Source: an uncultured delta proteobacterium (lineage in GTDB: Bacteria; Desulfobacterota; WTBG01). From it: a stretch of DNA of 64,000 nt. The notes beneath the pieces were generated by a model. The model searched no databases. It saw only the letters and a list, made by a program, of their open reading frames with translations, and had not been told where the DNA came from. The position numbers were made by a program, and so were the translations under genes. Below are positions 17,686 through 58,804 of this stretch, piece by piece. Location of the stretch: NCBI GenBank assembly GCA_963793865.1, contig CAWCBP010000008.1:320001-384000 (forward strand), in the 5' to 3' direction. The first letter of the stretch is position 1. The number at the start of each line of letters is the position of its first letter.

Positions 17686-18804
17686 ATGAAAAGAAACAAA
17701 ACGCTGCTATGCCTGTTAATCATGACATTTTTTATGGGTAGCTTCCTGTTGGTCCCGTATCTGAATGCGGAGGAGCCCAAGATCAATGTTACCATAACCC
17801 CAAAGTCAGAAGCAAAAACACCGAAGGCAGAAACTCCTAAAGCTGTAAGCACAAAGGGCAAAACATCAGGAGAGAATCAGCCCGTCATATCTATCGATGC
17901 GAGGCTATATGACGCCGGAGAAGTATGGGAAGGGGATATGGTAACACACAGCTTTATTGTTAAAAATACGGGAAAAGGTGAGCTGAACATTGCCAATGTC
18001 AAGCCCGGGTGAGGCTGCACCGTAGCCGATTTTGACAAGGCTATCGCCCCCGGTCGGGAAGGCAAAATAACATTAAAGCTCAATACAAGCAGAAGGCAGG
18101 GCAAGCTCACAAAAACAGCTGTGGTCACCTCAAATGATCCGAACACGCCAAGTACCAGCGTAACGCTGGCCTGTTTCATAAAAGAACATATCAGCATTAA
18201 ACCCAACAACCGGTTTAACCTTACGGGGTATGAAGGCGACGAGTTGAGTCAAAAACTGACCATTACCGCGACAGAAGGCCAGGAGTTTGACATAAAGGAA
18301 GTAAAGACAGATCTGACGGATAAGATCAAATATAAGCTGGAAACTGTCCAAAAGGGGAAAGAATACACTCTGGAAGTTACGAGCCTTACCCGGAAAGAAA
18401 GTTTCGTTCGTGGGCAGATAGAGATCAGTACCACCAGCCAGAAGAAACCCCTCATAGTCCTACCGGTCTTTGTTAAGATCCAAAGCGAAGTCGAGGTGAA
18501 GCCAGCTTCCCTCTACTTCGGCAAAATCGATACAGCCGGCGGGCCGGTCAATCCTGAGATCCTTACCAAGTCCGTGGTGATTAAAATGGCCCGGGGGAAG
18601 GAGCTGGGCATCAAGAAGGTCAGTGGAAGCAGCAACTGGATTAAAACAGAGACGAAAACGGATGAAAAGGGCGTCCAGTATACTGTGGCTATTACTCTCA
18701 ACAAGGATAAAATGCCCAGGGGGAAATTTGACGAAAAAGTTGAAATAAAGACCAACAAGAAGGACGAGCCGTTAATAGTAAGCATTAAAGGTGAAGTCAT
18801 GTAG
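17686..18804 (+). CDS. DUF1573-like exported protein, probable selenoprotein (UGA at 18010-18012, motif KPG-U-GCT)
   Basis: ORFs 17686-18012 and 18121-18804 are in the same frame. Read-through gives VKPG*GCTVADFDKAIAPGREGKITLKLNT, matching the DUF1573 'CGCT...I.PG..G.I' pattern. Confidence 0.85.
18022..18044 (+). promoter_or_regulatory. Candidate bacterial SECIS hairpin
   Basis: GTAGCC-gattttgacaa-GGCTAT starts 9 nt after the UGA. It is 22/23 identical to the element after the UGA of the paralog. Confidence 0.6.
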
Positions 18805-18984
18805 GCTGGGAAGCAAAAACATATCAAAGATTTCTCGCTTCGCTTCGAAATGACAGAATAAAGAGCTCAGCATGACCCCGGTAGGAGCGGCATCAGCCGC
18901 GAATAATATTCACTGCTTGTCATTTCGAAGGAACGTGCGTGACTGAGAAATCTTTCATTTGCGAATTTTAAAAAAGGAGCATTA

Positions 18985-20315: not shown

Positions 20316-22227
20316 ATGCGTTCAGGAGATGACCATACCAAGGCACAAGGCTCCCGGAAAGTGGTTGGCCGGGGGCAGGATTGCCTGCAAAAAAGCGGTT
20401 CCGCGGGGGGAAGGAAAACGGCGGGCGGCAGGTGGTTATGGCTTTTCCTGGTGATCCTTGCCGTTGTGATGCTCAGTTATTCCAACAGTTTAGAGAATCA
20501 GTACATCTTTGATGATTTTCATCTGATACTTTCGAACCCTCAGGTGACCAGCATCGAGAACACCGCACGCGACCTGCTCTCGGGGAAGCTCCCGGCATAC
20601 TATAGGCCGCTTAGAACCATTTCCTATGCTCTGGATTACACTCTCAATAAAAAGTTCTGGTACCGGTTTGCAAGCCATCAATGGACTGACAGGGGGCTTA
20701 TTCCCCTGGGATACCACGTCTCCAATATTTTCTATCATATCCTAACTGCATTGCTCGTATACCTGGTAATTTATAAGTTATCCTTGAATGCCAGGGTCGC
20801 TTTTATAGGCGCAAGCCTCTTTGCCCTCCATCCGGTACACACTGAAAGCGTAGCCTACCTTTCGGGGAGAAGGGATATCCTTTCTACTCTTTTTTACCTC
20901 GCTGGTTTTTATTGCTTCCTCTGTTACAGGCAGGGAAAGCAAATACGCTTCATAGTCGCCGCCTTTCTTATGTATATGCTGAGCTTGGGGAGTAAGGAGA
21001 TGGGGGTTACCCTTCCCGGTCTCTTTCTCGCATATGACCTGGTAAAAAATTTTAATCACAATGAGAGCAGCATGGGCCCCGGCTATTGGAAGGCTCTCTT
21101 TTCAAGCGCGAAGAAAAGTTTTCAGCAGTCTTATTTACTGTATCCGGTTGCTTTCCTGGGGGCTTTAGCCTGCAGCTGCTATGCAGTGTTCATTAAATCA
21201 GCTTCCCGTCAGGATGCGTATTACGGAGATAGCGCGTTTACCACTTTTCTCACAGTTGGAAGAATACTGGTGCATTATATAAAACTCCTTGTCTACCCCA
21301 TCAGGCTCAATGCCGATTACAGCTACAATGCTTTCCCTCTTTCGGTCTCCTTATATGAACCATCAACCTTCCTGTCTGTCCTACTGTTACTGCTGATGGG
21401 GTATCTGACCCTCAAGCTGCTGGTTAATCATAAAATGGCTGCTTTCGGGATTGCCTGGTTTTTTATAACCTTGCTGCCGGTATGTCACATCATTCCCCAC
21501 CATGAGATGATGGCTGAGCACTATCTTTATTTGCCTTCGGTTGGTCTCTGCCTGGTCGCGGCACTGGCCGGTAAGCGCTCCCTGGCGACGGGGAGGTCAC
21601 AACCTTGTTGCTCACAGGCTGTTTTCTCGCCGTAGTTGTGCTCTTTTCATTCCGGATATGGGATAGAAACAGGGATTGGAGCGACAGCCTTACCCTTTAT
21701 GAAAAGACGGTTAAAACAGCGCCTCAGTGCGCCCGCGCGCACAATAATCTCGGCAATGCACTAACTCGTGCGGGAAGAATTGAGGAAGCTGTTTCTGCCT
21801 TTAAACAGGCGCTCGCTATTAAGCCGGATTTTGCAGATGCCCGCAATAATCTCGGGATTGTCTATGCCAGAAGCGGTGATGTGGACGCAGCCATCACCGA
21901 ATATAAGAGAGTGCTGGCCCTTACCCCTAAACATACCAAGGCGATAGCATATAACAATCTTGCCTGGATTTATGCTACATCCATAAACGAGGCACAACGT
22001 GACGGCCGGAGGCAGTTGCATTAGCAATCAAAGCATGTGAGCTAACAGGATTTAAAAATGCCAGCTTTCTGGATACACTGGCCGCTGCGTGTGCTGAGGC
22101 GGGTTATTTCAAGAGTGCCGTGTTCTATCAGAAAAAGGCTCTGGCCATGAGTCAGGAAAAAGAACAAGCAGCTCTCCATGTCCGTCTGCGCCAGTATGAG
22201 TCCGGCCAGGCTTACCGATCCTACTAG
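20316..22227 (+). CDS. TMTC-like GT-C membrane glycosyltransferase with C-terminal TPRs; frameshifts at ~21590 and ~22010
   Basis: YIFDD, YYRP, FALHPVHTESVAYLSGR, SKE and AEHYLYLP, then TPRs. The final frame reads AVALAIKACELT...LDTLAAA to TAG at 22225-22227. Confidence 0.78.
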
Positions 22228-22268
22228 GGCACTCATCTCTAACTGTCCCATCGTTTACTTTAGTGTGA

Positions 22269-24569
22269 ATGGCTGGAACCTATTCATTGAGGCGAGCATG
22301 GGAAAAGCGAGCGTCAGAAAAAAAAGCAGGAAGACGTCCAGGGGAGCCAGCAGTTGATAACGGGTCAGCCTCTGAAGCCGGCTGCCTGCAAGCTCCGGCA
22401 CAAGAGGCCGAGTGCAAAAGGAAGTGGTACCTGCTCCTGGCTGGCGTGCTGCTTTTAACCGCTGCCTGCTATGGTAATTCCCTGAACAATACCTTTGTGT
22501 TTGATGATGCCCTGGTGATTGCTGAAAATCCCGGGATACGCGGCATTGAAAATATTCCCCGGCTGCTGGGATTCACAACCGGCCGCACTTCCTACCGGCC
22601 CATCAGGATGGTCTCCTACGCACTGGATTATACGCTTAACAAGAACCTCTGGTGCCAGATCGGGAATTGCCGGGAATCGGATCCCGGGCTCTATCCCCCG
22701 GGATACCATATTGGCAATATTGCCTACCATCTGCTGACGGCATTGCTGGTTTTTCTGGTCGTTTCGCGCCTGGCCGGAAATTTCCGGGTTGCGCTGCTGG
22801 CAGCGGGCATATTTGCCCTCCACCCGGTGCACACCGACAGCGTGACCTATCTCGCGGGCAGGAGGGACATCCTGTTCACCCTGTTTTATCTGGCCGGGTT
22901 TTATTTTTTTCTTCGCTACCGGCAGGAAAAGCGGCTGTCCCTGATGATTTTCGCCTTTATCATGTATATGCTCAGCATGGGGAGCAAGGAAATGGGGGTT
23001 ACTCTCCCCGCGCTCTTTTTGTGCTATGACATGGTTGAAAATTTTTCCCCGCAGGGTATCGGCCCGGGAGGCCGTGCCCGGGAGCTTTTCAAGAGTTTTA
23101 AAAAGAGTGTGGCCCAATCCGCGTATCTCTATGTTCCCCTGTTCATCGGCGCTCTTGCTTTCATCTACTATAAAGTTTTCGTTGCGTCACCATCCTACCA
23201 GAAGGCCTATTACGGGGACAGCGTTTTCATCACCTTTCTCACCGTGGTTAAGATTCTGGCGCACTACATTCAATTGCTGATATATCCCGTCAATCTCATC
23301 GCGGATTATTCCTACAACGCCTTTCCGCTTGCAACTTCATTGTTTGAGCCCGCGGTCCTCTTCTCCCTTGTGCTTCTCGCGGGGGTGGTGTACGCGCTCC
23401 TCCGCTTGTTGGACGGCCACAAGCTGCCGGCATTCGGCGGCGCCTGGTTTTTCCTGACCCTGCTCCCGGTCTGCCATATTTTTCCCCACCACGAGCTGCT
23501 GGCTGAACACTATCTCTATCTGCCCTCGGTGGGTTTCTGCATTGCGGCGGCAGCGCTGTTCGACACCTTCATGAAGGAGAAAAAGTACCGCTTATATGCT
23601 TCAGCCGGTTGTGTCGCCGTCCTCATTATCTTTTCGCTGCGCGTGGTTGACAGAAACAGGGATTGGAAGGACAGCCTTACCCTTTATGAAAAAACCGTCA
23701 CAACCGTACCTGAATGCGCCCGCGCAAACTCCAATCTCTGCGAGGCCTATACCAATGAGGGAAGGCTGGATGAGGCCCTGGCGGCATGCAGGCAGGCGCT
23801 GGCCATCAAGCCGGACCAGATCGAGGCGAACCATAATCTCGGCACCGTGTATGCGCGCAAAGGAATGGCGGAAGAAGCGATTGCCAGCTACAAACAGGCC
23901 CTGGCTTTAAGGCCGCGCTACGCGAAGGCATATTTCAATATCGGTGTGCTGCTTTATCAAAAGGGTGATCTCGAGGGTGCAGTTGATGCGTATAAGCAGG
24001 CGCTTGCCATCAGTCCTTACTATGCTGAAGCGAGAAAAAATCTGGGCATGGCCTACAGCGCAATGGGAAGATTTCAGGAGGCAATTGAGCAGTACAGGTG
24101 GGCAATGGCCATCAAACCGAACTATACCGGCGCCCGGAACAGCCTGGCAGCCGCCTACCTGCAGCAGGGTGCGTTCGATAATGCCATAGCGGAAATGGAA
24201 TTGGCGGTGGCCGGCAACCCCGATGACGCGGACGCGTATTTCAGCCTGGGATATGCCTATTCACAAAAGGGGGATACTGCCAAAGCGGTTGACGCGTATA
24301 AGCGTGCGATTGCCAAGGGCCTGGTGAGGGCGGAAGTCCACAGCAATCTCGGCAATCTCTACCTTCAGGAGGGGAGGCTTGATGAGGCAATCAGTGAATA
24401 CCTGCAGGCGATTTCCATCCAGGATAATTTTGCCGGCGCCCATAATAACCTGGCCATGGCATATTTTAAAAAGCAAGAGTATGCCATGGCCATAAAACAC
24501 TGTGACAGGGCGGCGGAACTCGGTCTCAGCAATCCGGCCCTGCTGAAGGATCTCCTGCCCTATCGCTAG
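22269..24569 (+). CDS. TMTC-like GT-C membrane glycosyltransferase with multiple TPRs
   Basis: FVFDD, SYRP, FALHPVHTDSVTYLAGR and AEHYLYLPS, then a TPR array. Close paralog of the upstream gene. The start is uncertain. Confidence 0.85.
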   Translation: MAGTYSLRRAWEKRASEKKAGRRPGEPAVDNGSASEAGCLQAPAQEAECKRKWYLLLAGVLLLTAACYGNSLNNTFVFDDALVIAENPGIRGIENIPRLLGFTTGRTSYRPIRMVSYALDYTLNKNLWCQIGNCRESDPGLYPPGYHIGNIAYHLLTALLVFLVVSRLAGNFRVALLAAGIFALHPVHTDSVTYLAGRRDILFTLFYLAGFYFFLRYRQEKRLSLMIFAFIMYMLSMGSKEMGVTLPALFLCYDMVENFSPQGIGPGGRARELFKSFKKSVAQSAYLYVPLFIGALAFIYYKVFVASPSYQKAYYGDSVFITFLTVVKILAHYIQLLIYPVNLIADYSYNAFPLATSLFEPAVLFSLVLLAGVVYALLRLLDGHKLPAFGGAWFFLTLLPVCHIFPHHELLAEHYLYLPSVGFCIAAAALFDTFMKEKKYRLYASAGCVAVLIIFSLRVVDRNRDWKDSLTLYEKTVTTVPECARANSNLCEAYTNEGRLDEALAACRQALAIKPDQIEANHNLGTVYARKGMAEEAIASYKQALALRPRYAKAYFNIGVLLYQKGDLEGAVDAYKQALAISPYYAEARKNLGMAYSAMGRFQEAIEQYRWAMAIKPNYTGARNSLAAAYLQQGAFDNAIAEMELAVAGNPDDADAYFSLGYAYSQKGDTAKAVDAYKRAIAKGLVRAEVHSNLGNLYLQEGRLDEAISEYLQAISIQDNFAGAHNNLAMAYFKKQEYAMAIKHCDRAAELGLSNPALLKDLLPYR

Positions 24570-24694
24570 CAGGCTGTTGAAAAACACCCATCTGCTGCGT
24601 TACGCTCATCCTTCGTCATTGCAGCGTACTCGCATGTACGCCTCATTCCTCAGGATTTCGCGTGCCTTGCATCTGGATGTTTTTGAACAGCCTG
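24570..24694. mobile_element. MITE-like element with 17-bp terminal inverted repeats
   Basis: CAGGCTGTTGAAAAACA ... TGTTTTTGAACAGCCTG (16/17 match), non-coding. A partial left end recurs at ~47427. Both copies begin right after a TAG stop. Confidence 0.6.
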
Positions 24695-24740
24695 AGAAAA
24701 ACTACTTTTCAACAACCCGCAGGGAAAGACCCCGCCTGCT

Positions 24741-25757
24741 TTAGAGTACTTTGCCCTCGACGATAATAGTTGCCGCGACGGTCTTGCCCTGGCACTGCGT
24801 CTGAACGGTTACCGTTTCCCTGAATTTCTCTTTGGGTAATTTGTCCTTATTCAGCGAGATGGTGATGGTGTACTGTTTTCCCGCCTGATCGGCTTTTACC
24901 TCTGCCGTAATCCACTCCTTGCTTGTCTCGATCTTGTTAATACTCAGATCTTCCGACTGCAGATGGCTGATGACGGTGGTTCTCTTGAGGCTCGATGCGT
25001 CGAAGTTTTCCTTGCCGGTATCGATAACGCCGAAATAAAGATATTCGGGGGTGACCTTTATCTCTTTTTTCAGGTTTCCCAGGACCGATATCGAAACCTC
25101 GGGCTTCTTCTTTGATTCCGTCTTGAGCGCGATTCTTCCCCGGAAGGTATCTTTAATGCCGCCCCGCGTCTTAATCCCAAGGGTGTATTCCTTGTCCTTC
25201 TTCTCATTTTTCAGGGTGTATTCTATTTTATCGTCGATGTTTGAAGAAACCCCGGTTATGTTGAGAGGCTCATCAGTATTGGTGGTAATGCGCAGAACCT
25301 GTTCCAAACTGTCCCCGTAAAATCCGCTGAACATCACCCGGGGGGCCGGCTCTACGCTGATGAAGGGTTTTATCGTACCCCCGATGGAAACCGTGACCTT
25401 GGGCTGTTCGGGATCGTTTGAAAAAATAATCGCGCTCTGTCTTGTCGCTCCCATTTTGCCGGGTGTGCTGATTCTCAGGGTTACTTTGCCCTCCTGACCA
25501 GGAGGAATAGCCTTATCAAAATCGGCTACCGTGCACCCTCACCCCGGTTTGACATTGGTAATGTCGAGCTGGGCCGTGCCGGTATTCCTGATGGTGAAGG
25601 TGTGAATGATATCCTCACCCTCCCATAGCTCTCCGGCGTCATAGTCAGGGGCATCGATGGTGAGCCGGGGCTGGTCTCCTCCCTGCGCGAAGAGGCAGTG
25701 AACAGTAGAAAAGGTAAAGAGCAGGCAAAGCATGGTCAGAAACAGGTTTTTTTTCAT
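24741..25757 (-). CDS. DUF1573-like exported protein, probable selenoprotein (UGA at 25541-25539, motif KPG-U-GCT)
   Basis: ORFs 25539-25805 and 24741-25454 are in frame. Read-through gives NVKPG*GCTVADFDKAIPPGQEGKVTLRIST. Full-length paralog of 17686-18804. Confidence 0.85.
25507..25529 (-). promoter_or_regulatory. Candidate bacterial SECIS hairpin
   Basis: Minus strand GTAGCC-gattttgataa-GGCTAT, 9 nt after the UGA. Confidence 0.6.
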
Positions 25758-58328: not shown

Positions 58329-58381
58329 CACATTAAAAAAGTGTAATCGGTAAAAGCAGCTCAAACATGGAGGATTTCAAA

Positions 58382-58804
58382 ATGGGTCCGGGAGAGAATG
58401 CGGTTTCTTATTTTGAGCAGGGAAATAACTGAGCGGTGTCAGTGTTTCGCTCGTTGAGCGAACTGGTTGATGCCGGTGAGAGGATGGACTATCATCTGGC
58501 GGCGGGATTCGGAGGCGGCCTGGGCAGAAACGGTTACGTGTGCGGTGCCGTCGCGGCTGCAACCATGATTATCAGCCTGGAGGGAAGGGGAAAGGAGAAG
58601 AAGGAGATCTACAGAGATGTGGATGGATTTCTTAATGATTTCAAATCCCGCTTCGGAGAGGTTAATTGCCGCGGACTGCTGGGAGTGGACCTTAAAACCA
58701 AAGAGGGAATGGCATTTCTCGCAACAGAGGGACACAAAAAGTGCGCTGACTATGTCCGTTACGCCGCGGACCGGGTGGGGGACATGATTAGTGTGAAGGA
58801 GTGA
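58382..58804 (+). CDS. C-GCAxxG-C-C family redox protein, probable selenoprotein (UGA at 58430-58432)
   Basis: GGAGG RBS, ATG at 58382, then MGPGENAVSYFEQGNN*AVSV in frame with GFGGG..CGAV..VNC..KC. The UGA sits at the family's first Cys position (N-C-A). Confidence 0.82.
58446..58462 (+). promoter_or_regulatory. Candidate SECIS hairpin
   Basis: TTCGCTC-gtt-GAGCGAA, 13 nt after the UGA, with G first in the loop. Confidence 0.55.

What the first reader, a model, noticed from the sequence alone, without database searches (positions are those of the whole stretch)
24741..25757. Second paralog keeps the same UGA and a nearly identical downstream hairpin
Seen: an otherwise well-diverged paralog on the opposite strand has TGA at the same codon. 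The 23-nt segment GTAGCCGATTTTGAYAAGGCTAT is 22/23 identical in both genes, including synonymous positions. The same nonsense mutation or error in both copies is unlikely. Local nucleotide conservation suggests a SECIS-type recoding signal.
Basis: partly seen in the sequence, partly recalled or inferred. Interest (0 to 1): 0.8.

Follow-up and report, generated by a model that had tools for sequence, protein, structure and literature searches.

The report
Known DUF1573 selenoprotein gene, two-hairpin signal
The in-frame stop codon is a genuine selenocysteine codon in a member of a selenoprotein family catalogued since 2007, so the finding is real but ordinary; the one unusual point is that its RNA insertion signal seems to consist of two adjacent hairpins.

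Summary
Gene 24741-25757(-) has TGA at codon 73, and its 42%-identical paralog 17686-18804(+) has TGA at the aligned codon 109. The 23-nt stretch is 22/23 identical.

Both proteins score above the curated cut-off of NCBIfam NF041425, "OS_HP2 family (seleno)protein". This is the Pfam DUF1573 family with a U-G-C motif, listed as a selenoprotein family since Zhang & Gladyshev 2007. The genome has selA, selB, a Sec-containing selD and tRNA-Sec(UCA), and it uses TGA as its commonest stop. So UGA = selenocysteine, and that is already known. This scan has noted DUF1573 selenoproteins in at least 24 other genomes.

The wider comparison does support an RNA signal. The region downstream of UGA is more structured than synonymous-codon shuffles in 53/54 Sec forms (mean z -2.17). 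For 29 Cys forms the mean z is -0.49.

The signal has two parts:
- **H2**, an adjacent G-loop hairpin at +36..+53 with loop GGUC. This resembles the same genome's fdhA SECIS loop but lies 39 nt from UGA, outside the canonical 16-37 nt range.

I infer that H2 binds SelB and H1 acts as a folded spacer. This is untested.

The parts
24741..25757 (-). OS_HP2/DUF1573 selenoprotein gene (338 codons plus TAA): N-terminal signal-like helix, then three Ig-like beta-sandwich domains
   Evidence: Translation with TGA=U. PF07610 scores 82.5 bits over residues 33-127. NF041425 scores 118.1 bits against a cut-off of 100 over residues 36-129, spanning the TGA. AlphaFold model mean pLDDT 93.4.
25539..25541 (-). 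UGA codon 73, read as selenocysteine (motif U73-G74-C75)
   Evidence: The column is invariant U/C in a 34-sequence alignment.
25506..25530 (-). Hairpin H1, nt +12..+36 from the U of UGA: GGUAGCC[GAUUUUGAUAA]GGCUAUU.
   Evidence: The H1 region gives z -2.42 and p 0.03 against synonymous shuffles.
25489..25506 (-). Hairpin H2, nt +36..+53: UCCUCCU[GGUC]AGGAGGG. The loop is at 25496-25499, 39 nt after UGA. Candidate SelB-binding stem-loop.
   Evidence: Energy -8.9 kcal/mol. It encodes P-P-G-Q-E-G.
17686..18804 (+). Paralogous OS_HP2/DUF1573 selenoprotein gene (372 codons plus TAG)
   Evidence: PF07610 scores 101.5 bits. NF041425 scores 115.1 bits. 42% identity to the other copy.
18010..18012 (+). 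UGA codon 109 of the paralog, aligned with codon 73 of the other copy
18022..18044 (+). H1 of the paralog: GUAGCC[GAUUUUGACAA]GGCUAU
18046..18063 (+). H2 of the paralog, imperfect: GCC-CCC[GGUC]GGG-AA-GGC (3+3 bp with an AA bulge), loop at 18052-18055
   Evidence: The minimum-free-energy fold of 18004-18110 shows it. My bulge-free census counts only 4 bp here.

Best explanation
Both genes encode exported three-domain Ig-like proteins of the OS_HP2/DUF1573 selenoprotein family. The in-frame UGA is decoded as selenocysteine by SelB and Sec-tRNA(UCA), giving a U-G-C motif in the turn between two strands of the first domain.

The recoding signal lies in the 50 nt after the UGA and has two adjacent hairpins:
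- H1 (+12..+36) is variable in sequence and loop across the family.
- H2 (+36..+53) carries a G-rich loop, GGUC in this gene.

My preferred model is that H2 is the SelB-binding stem-loop. H1, by folding on itself, shortens the path between the UGA and H2 from 39 nt to about 14-16 nt. That brings it near the 19-20 nt seen in this genome's other selenoprotein genes.

What is shown and what is inferred:
- Shown: family membership, Sec machinery, Sec-specific RNA structure.
- Inferred: which hairpin SelB binds (about 55% H2, 30% H1, 15% both as one unit), and the protein's role. The role is probably an extracytoplasmic selenol/thiol redox or metal-binding site; this is a low-confidence inference.
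For: **Family.** NF041425 scores 118.1 and 115.1 bits against a cut-off of 100. PF07610 matches run across the TGA. The literature lists OS_HP2 = pfam07610 with motif UxC/UGC (PMC1976440 Table 2; PMC2398784; PMC13188914 and PMC9312934 tables).

**Machinery in the same genome.**
- selB 370 bits against a 242 cut-off.
- selA 577 bits against 268.
- selD 303 bits with its own in-frame TGA.
- tRNA-Sec 77 bits, anticodon TCA.
- TGA ends 837 of 1955 ORFs of >=300 codons, so it is a normal stop.

**Conservation.** The family is found in 34/41 relatives and 147/401 genomes of the phylum, in both TGA and Cys forms.

**RNA structure.**
- MFE of +10..+60 against synonymous shuffles: Sec forms mean z -2.17 and 53/54 below 0; Cys forms mean z -0.49 and 21/29 below 0.
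- Each half separately: H1 region z -2.43 (Sec) against -0.50 (Cys); H2 region z -1.72 against +0.05.
- H1 >=6 bp in 40/54 against 3/29. H2 >=6 bp in 34/54 against 4/29.
- With this gene's structure laid on 39 Sec sequences, 74.7% of cells pair against 43-52% when partners are slid, and 8 of 13 pairs show double changes.

**H2 as the SelB site.**
- G occupies the first two loop positions in 38/43 H2 against 17/50 H1.
- In this genome the hairpin loops are GGUCU (fdhA), GGA (selD, hdrA) and GUU (a C_GCAxxG gene), all at spacing 19-20 nt.
- The peptide motif PG.EG that encodes H2 is present in 46/54 Sec forms against 5/29 Cys forms.
- With H1 looped out, the effective spacing is 14-26 nt, median 21, in the 38 Sec forms that have both hairpins.
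Against: - No experiment shows Sec insertion here.
- In this gene alone H2 is not significant against synonymous shuffles (z -0.85, p 0.24), because P-P-G-Q-E-G codons pair almost by necessity. H1 is the significant half.
- In the paralog H2 is imperfect, and neither half reaches p 0.05 (H1 p 0.09, H2 p 0.17).
- Neither hairpin meets all four rules of the published bSECIS model as I applied them.
- Some Cys forms also fold well: 4/29 have z below -1.64.
- Sec and Cys rows are relatives, so the Mann-Whitney p values overstate. A phylogenetically independent test had only 3 supported pairs and no power.
- RNAalifold found no single consensus on 39 sequences, because H1 sits in different registers in different subfamilies.
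- The Sec sites are the best-scoring loci of two searches, not a random sample.
Confidence: 0.9

Rival explanations
1. The reader's hairpin H1 alone is the SECIS that SelB binds. H2 is a by-product of the conserved P-P-G-x-E-G peptide, or a mere stabiliser.
For: - H1 starts 9-14 nt after the UGA (H1 start +12..+18 in 37 of 38 rows). This is where this genome's fdhA, selD and hdrA hairpins start (+14..+17).
- H1 is the more significant half against synonymous shuffles: mean z -2.43, with p<=0.05 in 37/54 Sec forms.
- H1 covaries strongly: 5 of 6 pairs show double changes.
- In this gene its loop begins with G.
Against: - H1 loops are very heterogeneous across the family (3-11 nt; UCUUUC, UUCG, UAUU, GAUUUUGAUAA). 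G is in the first two loop positions in only 17/50.
- In this gene the loop is 11 nt and A/U-rich, unlike the GGUCU, GGA and GUU loops of the same genome.
- This model does not explain why H2 and the PG.EG motif track the Sec state.
Confidence: 0.3
2. The UGA is read through without selenocysteine, for example by near-cognate Cys or Trp tRNA or a reassigned code, and the hairpins merely slow the ribosome.
For: No direct evidence. Structured RNA after a stop codon can promote read-through in other systems (recalled).
Against: - TGA is the commonest stop of long ORFs in this genome: 837/1955.
- The site aligns with Cys in homologues. This is the classical Sec/Cys signature.
- A complete Sec pathway is present.
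- The family is curated as a selenoprotein family.
Confidence: 0.04
3. The TGAs are true stops, pseudogene lesions or sequencing errors, and the frames are broken.
For: Two further copies in the genome (L019, L020) do carry single-base homopolymer frameshifts. So errors or decay do occur in this family in this assembly.
Against: - The same codon is TGA in both window copies and in 54 sites from dozens of genera.
- The domain models align across it.
- The read-through protein folds as one confident three-domain chain, pLDDT 93.4.
Confidence: 0.02

Closest known systems
OS_HP2 / 'DUF1573 domain-containing protein' selenoprotein family (NCBIfam NF041425; Pfam PF07610; Zhang & Gladyshev 2007, PMC1976440; GOS survey 2008, PMC2398784)
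   Same: Same domain. Same U-G-C motif at the first Cys of the C-G-C motif. Scores above the curated cut-off. Found in a Desulfobacterota-type genome, as were the original delta-symbiont sequences.
   Different: Nothing essential. This subfamily is a long form, with two extra Ig-like domains after the DUF1573 domain. The papers I saw give only table rows for the family. Fig. 5 of the 2007 paper, by its legend, shows SECIS drawings for five other new families but not OS_HP2.
Canonical bacterial SECIS (E. coli fdhF type; consensus model as given in PMC13188914, Fig. 2 legend)
   Same: A stem-loop in the coding sequence after UGA. H2 has a 7-bp stem and a 4-nt loop GGUC, which fits the G[G|U]N loop pattern. 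The same genome's fdhA has the loop GGUCU.
   Different: H2's loop is 39 nt from the UGA (36-41 nt across the family), against the model's 16-37 nt and 19-20 nt in this genome's other selenoprotein genes. A second, variable hairpin fills the gap. The fdhF details (loop G23/U24, 11-nt spacer) are recalled and come from no call.
Cys-containing DUF1573 proteins (C-G-C or C-A-C motif)
   Same: Same fold and domain, and the same position of the motif. Tandem Sec and Cys copies lie side by side in two genomes (L065, L066).
   Different: Cys forms mostly lack both hairpins and the PG.EG motif.
Cys-Sec (C-U) DUF1573-like subfamilies noted earlier in this scan (AI notes, for example e1-4882077)
   Same: Same superfamily, exported or membrane-anchored, Sec in the Cys motif.
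   Different: In those, Sec replaces the second Cys, and they sit in copper-gene clusters. In the present family Sec replaces the first Cys, and no conserved neighbour was found in the 27 loci checked.

Membership tests
OS_HP2 family (seleno)protein, NCBIfam NF041425 | HMM score at or above the curated cut-off (100 bits) | tested here: met
   118.1 bits (this gene) and 115.1 bits (paralog) with C in place of U. The six-frame genome search, which counts the stop, gave 94.8 and 95.8 bits.
OS_HP2 family (seleno)protein, NCBIfam NF041425 | DUF1573 (PF07610) domain with U or C at the first position of the U/C-G-C motif | tested here: met
   PF07610 scores 82.5 and 101.5 bits. U73-G74-C75. Columns C73 and C75 are invariant in 34 sequences.
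Bacterial selenoprotein gene (SelB-dependent) | selA, selB, selD and tRNA-Sec(UCA) present in the genome | tested here: met
   All score above their curated cut-offs.
Bacterial selenoprotein gene (SelB-dependent) | Cys-containing homologues aligned at the UGA position | tested here: met
   29 Cys sites were collected. By my hand count, about 67 of the 150 listed rows have no stop and about 83 have one TGA.
Bacterial selenoprotein gene (SelB-dependent) | Selenium actually incorporated at the UGA | not testable with these tools
   Needs 75Se labelling or mass spectrometry.
Canonical bSECIS model (PMC13188914, Fig. 2 legend) | Apical loop of 3-9 nt on an upper stem of 4-16 bp | tested here: inconclusive
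   H1 fails: 11-nt loop on a 6-7 bp stem. H2 passes: 4-nt loop on a 7 bp stem. I used my own bulge-free enumerator, not bSECISearch.
Canonical bSECIS model (PMC13188914, Fig. 2 legend) | G in the first two loop positions | tested here: met
   H1 loop starts GA. H2 loop is GGUC.
Canonical bSECIS model (PMC13188914, Fig. 2 legend) | 16-37 nt between the UGA and the apical loop | tested here: not met
   15 nt for H1 and 39 nt for H2 in this gene. Across the family only 5/54 Sec forms had a hairpin meeting all rules. 28/54 had a G-loop hairpin of <= -7.5 kcal/mol at 38-45 nt.
Canonical bSECIS model (PMC13188914, Fig. 2 legend) | MFE <= -7.5 kcal/mol | tested here: met
   H2 is -8.9 kcal/mol. The H1 region is -7.8 kcal/mol.
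Rfam RNA families (release 15) | Covariance-model match at the gathering score | tested here: not met
   No match in the whole window. Only a chance RAGATH-25 hit at E 0.73 in the 121 nt around the signal.

The most novel reading that the evidence does not exclude
The OS_HP2/DUF1573 selenoprotein family uses a compound bacterial SECIS. A G-loop SelB-type hairpin sits 36-41 nt from the UGA, beyond the canonical window in 32 of 38 cases. It is preceded by an obligatory hairpin of free-varying sequence that acts as a folded spacer and restores a canonical effective distance. If so, it would be a definable second class of bSECIS. It would also help explain why about one in eight catalogued bacterial selenoprotein genes lack a 'canonical' element (BSepDB, PMC13326102).
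Probability: 0.35. Interest if true: 0.5.

Novelty: already known. Interest (0 to 1): 0.2.

Why it matters
**For annotation.** Both genes should be called as single selenoprotein genes of 338 and 372 residues, not as fragment pairs. The window also holds a third selenoprotein gene, of the C_GCAxxG_C_C family. None of this is new biology.

**The modest added value.** The recoding signal is the one new point. In this family the hairpin with a SelB-type loop lies twice as far from the UGA as in the same genome's fdhA, hdrA and selD genes, and a second Sec-specific hairpin fills the gap. The peptide motif PG.EG that encodes the distal hairpin tracks the Sec state (46/54 against 5/29). This illustrates how an in-frame RNA signal constrains protein sequence. 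If confirmed at the bench, it would widen the search model used to find bacterial selenoprotein genes.

Tried and rejected
- **RNAalifold on 39 Sec sequences:** no consensus pairs, because H1 is in different registers in different subfamilies.
- **Rfam:** nothing at gathering score. Only a chance hit in a local E-value search.
- **Strict genome scan** for TGA followed by a perfect stem of at least 5 bp capped by GGUC: 3 hits, of which only this gene is credible. This is too strict to define the genome's SECIS.
- **First coding-potential scan** for read-through ORFs: noisy, mostly antisense artefacts. It was replaced by a stricter scan that returned 10 candidates. Of these I confirmed fdhA (C6 copy), hdrA, selD and the C_GCAxxG gene with family models. 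I called two further fdhA-like hits by motif only. The other four were not confirmed. The OS_HP2 genes themselves did not pass that scan's filters.
- **First synonymous-shuffle null** with pooled codon usage: it gave Cys controls a negative bias, so I redid it with each ORF's own usage.
- **Gene neighbourhood:** 55 flanking ORFs, taken from the 75 the script listed in 27 loci, showed no conserved partner apart from a HAD_2 hydrolase in 5 loci.
- **Fold search of the model against PDB:** only generic tandem Ig/ASH-like chains, including HYDIN-type ciliary proteins, cadherins and one P. gingivalis protein of unknown function. No functional lead.
- **Phylogenetically independent pairs** (Sec state against PG.EG, or against H1): only 3 supported pairs, so no power.
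- **Literature search** for a two-hairpin or non-canonical bSECIS: nothing relevant among the 12 papers listed. Searches for 'OS_HP2' and for 'DUF1573' with 'selenocysteine' found only table entries.
- **Earlier scan notes:** none describes a two-hairpin signal for this family.

Full report
**1. The observation**

Read with TGA=U, window 24741-25757(-) is one frame of 338 codons. Its single TGA is codon 73 (25539-25541). Window 17686-18804(+) is a 372-codon frame with a single TGA at codon 109 (18010-18012).

The proteins are 42% identical over 313 residues, and the two TGAs share an alignment column. The 23-nt pattern occurs exactly twice in the window, at 18022-18044(+) and 25507-25529(-), with none in 100 shuffles.

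The 23 nt encode the identical peptide VADFDKAI. Six of its eight codons are identical, against 70 of 138 (51%) for all conserved degenerate codons of the pair. An equal or better run occurs elsewhere, and the permutation p is 0.89. The two-gene comparison therefore carries no evidence of an RNA constraint.

**2. What the genes are**

Both proteins match Pfam DUF1573 (PF07610) at 82.5 and 101.5 bits, with the match running across the TGA. Both exceed the curated cut-off of NCBIfam NF041425, 'OS_HP2 family (seleno)protein', at 118.1 and 115.1 bits against 100.

OS_HP2 was named in Zhang & Gladyshev 2007. I saw Table 2 and the figure legends (PMC1976440). The 2008 GOS survey equates it with pfam07610 and the motif UxC; I saw the table row (PMC2398784). 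[quoted passage not shown] The family is thus already catalogued.

This scan has also met DUF1573 selenoproteins before: 24 notes in at least 24 genomes. None is on look-alike DNA of this gene.

**3. The genome can make selenoproteins**

The window's genome (3.85 Mb, 14 contigs, completeness 98.6%) holds the full pathway:
- selB at 370 bits against a 242 cut-off;
- selA at 577 bits against 268;
- selD at 303 bits, itself with an in-frame TGA;
- tRNA-Sec at 77 bits, with anticodon TCA by ARAGORN.

TGA ends 837 of 1955 ORFs of at least 300 codons, so the code is not reassigned.

**4. Distribution**

The family model hits 34 of 41 relatives at E <= 0.001 and 147 of 401 sampled genomes of the phylum at E <= 1e-15. 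Of the 150 rows listed, about 83 carry one TGA and about 67 carry none. This is my hand count, and 41 further rows were not listed.

From 62 loci I extracted 54 UGA sites and 9 Cys sites. One locus, L058, showed no motif and was dropped. L065 and L066 each hold a Sec copy and a Cys copy in tandem. I added 20 more Cys sites taken from the 'none' rows, giving 29.

The Sec sites are the best-scoring loci of the two searches. They include the window genome's three copies and some near-duplicates.

**5. Is there an RNA signal?**

For each site I folded nt +10..+60 and compared the result with 300 shuffles. The shuffles keep the peptide and draw codons from that ORF's own usage.

| | Sec forms (n=54) | Cys forms (n=29) |
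|---|---|---|
| mean z | -2.17 | -0.49 |
| z below 0 | 53/54 | 21/29 |
| z below -1.64 | 37/54 | 4/29 |

The Mann-Whitney p is 5e-9, but the rows are relatives, so this overstates. This gene gives z -1.99 (p 0.037) and its paralog z -1.83 (p 0.047).

An earlier version with pooled codon usage biased the Cys controls and was replaced.

**6. Two hairpins, not one**

The structure resolves into two elements:
- **H1** lies at about +12..+36.
- **H2** lies at about +35..+54. In this gene it is UCCUCCU[GGUC]AGGAGGG, encoding P-P-G-Q-E-G.

Bulge-free stem census:

| | Sec forms | Cys forms |
|---|---|---|
| H1 >= 6 bp | 40/54 | 3/29 |
| H2 >= 6 bp | 34/54 | 4/29 |
| both >= 5 bp | 39/54 | 5/29 |

Each half is separately more stable than synonymous shuffles in Sec forms only:

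| | Sec forms | Cys forms |
|---|---|---|
| H1 region, mean z | -2.43 | -0.50 |
| H2 region, mean z | -1.72 | +0.05 |

H1 changes sequence, register and loop size between subfamilies while keeping its pairing. Examples are GUAGCC/GGCUAU, CUUUGGC/GCCAAAG, CUCUGUC/GACAGAG and CACGGUC/GACCGUG.

I laid this gene's two-helix structure on 39 ungapped Sec sequences:
- 74.7% of cells pair, against 43-52% with partners slid.
- 8 of 13 pairs show changes on both sides.
- 0 of 500 shuffles reach the observed covariation score.
- The structure was taken from one of the rows, which favours it.

RNAalifold itself returned no consensus, consistent with the shifting H1 register.

**7. Which hairpin does SelB see?**

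The published consensus (PMC13188914, Fig. 2 legend) asks for four things:
- a 3-9 nt loop on a 4-16 bp stem;
- G in the first two loop positions;
- 16-37 nt between the UGA and the loop;
- MFE <= -7.5 kcal/mol.

In this gene H1 fails on loop size (11 nt) and marginally on spacing (15 nt). H2 meets every structural rule (-8.9 kcal/mol) but sits 39 nt from the UGA.

With my own bulge-free enumerator (not bSECISearch), only 5 of 54 Sec forms have a fully canonical hairpin. 28 of 54 have a G-loop hairpin of <= -7.5 kcal/mol at 38-45 nt. For Cys forms the figures are 2 and 2 of 29.

G occupies the first two loop positions in 38 of 43 H2 but only 17 of 50 H1.

Within the same genome I found hairpins at spacing 19-20 nt after the UGA of fdhA, hdrA, selD and a C_GCAxxG_C_C gene. 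Their loops are GGUCU (or GUC in the alternative register), GGA, GGA and GUU. The identities of these genes are supported as follows:
- fdhA: TIGR01591, 848 bits.
- hdrA: 810 bits to an HdrA2 model, below that model's cut-off.
- selD.
- the C_GCAxxG_C_C gene: PF09719, 77 bits.

Two further fdhA-like sites show the same layout; I judged them by motif only.

So H2 carries the loop this organism's SelB evidently meets elsewhere, but twice as far away, and H1 fills the gap. In the 38 Sec forms with both hairpins, the raw distance to the H2 loop is 36-41 nt, and 32 of 38 are above 37. If H1 is treated as looped out, the distance is 14-26 nt with a median of 21.

The peptide motif PG.EG that encodes H2 is present in 46 of 54 Sec forms but only 5 of 29 Cys forms. 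This suggests that the RNA element shapes the protein.

**Points against the H2 model**
- In this gene alone H2 is not significant against synonymous shuffles (p 0.24), while H1 is (p 0.03).
- H2 is imperfect in the paralog (3+3 bp with a bulge).
- The phylogenetically independent test had only 3 supported pairs.

I therefore put about 55% on 'H2 binds SelB, H1 is a folded spacer', 30% on 'H1 binds SelB', and the rest on a joint unit. The E. coli fdhF details used as background (GGUC loop, G23/U24, 11-nt spacer, strict distance dependence) are recalled and not taken from a call.

**8. The protein**

The AlphaFold model (34-sequence alignment, mean pLDDT 93.4, pTM 0.75) shows an N-terminal helix at residues 4-21, which is signal-peptide-like. 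Three beta-sandwich domains follow. U73-G74-C75 lies in the turn between strands 64-71 and 76-80 of the first domain.

PDB fold matches are generic tandem Ig/ASH-like chains and give no function.

Neighbours are not conserved. I scanned 55 flanking ORFs, taken from the 75 the script listed in 27 loci. They showed only a HAD_2 hydrolase, in 5 loci.

In this window the two paralogs face each other across TMTC-like (PMT_2/DUF1736 + TPR) membrane-protein genes. A same-genus genome has the same inverted pair about 7.4 kb apart.

A UxC motif in an exported domain suggests a selenol/thiol redox or metal site. This is inference from general selenoprotein knowledge, not a result.

**9. Verdict**

The finding is real and its interpretation correct, but the gene family, its Sec codon and the existence of a downstream structure are already known and curated. 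The only point that may go beyond the literature I could search is the two-hairpin layout, with a distal G-loop element.

Limits on what I could see:
- Searches found no description of such a layout.
- I could not see the figures of the 2007 paper, only their legends.
- I could not reach BSepDB's per-family SECIS statistics.
- BSepDB reports that 87.4% of its entries have a canonical SECIS and calls the remainder uncharacterised (PMC13326102, passages).

Noticed in passing
window 58367-58801 (+), TGA at 58430-58432: A third selenoprotein gene in the window. It is a C_GCAxxG_C_C family protein (PF09719, 77 bits) with an in-frame TGA at codon 22 (GNN-U-AVSVF) and a 7-bp hairpin with loop GUU 20 nt downstream. 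This too is a known selenoprotein family.
   Followed up: partly
L019 (G000:C2, about 37.7 kb, -) and L020 (G000:C6, about 5.2 kb, +): Two more short-form OS_HP2 copies, 88% identical to each other (690/787 columns). Both keep the TGA and H2. Each is broken by a different single-base homopolymer indel: an A-run in L019, and a C-run just before the TGA in L020. Both lie next to a rhodanese/thrombospondin-repeat gene. They are pseudogenes or assembly errors.
   Followed up: partly
window 20316-24569 (+): TMTC-like membrane proteins (PMT_2/DUF1736 plus many TPR repeats) lie between the two inverted OS_HP2 paralogs. 20316-21635 and 21605-22024 look like one such gene split by a frame change. The same inverted pair, about 7.4 kb apart, is seen in same-genus genome G001 (contig C35).
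   Followed up: no
L065 and L066 (G079:C37, G394:C18): A Sec form and a Cys form of the family lie in tandem about 1 kb apart in two related genomes. Only the Sec copy has the strong downstream structure (z -3.5, against -0.01 and -1.1 for the Cys copies).
   Followed up: partly
window 24570-24740 and 18805-18980: The intergenic stretches after both paralogs contain long imperfect inverted-repeat-like sequences, seen by eye. They could be terminators or small repeat elements.
   Followed up: no
G000:C1:969976-971350 (-): The selA match is in two pieces in different frames (positions 59-453 and 1-53 of the model). This may be a frameshift or an assembly error near the 5' end of selA.
   Followed up: no
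G000:C6:198840, C10:36968, C1:242646: Three formate-dehydrogenase-alpha-like genes with Sec (…ARL/ARI-U-HS…). Each has a [G]GUC-loop hairpin 19 nt after the UGA. Only the C6 copy was confirmed with a family model.
   Followed up: partly
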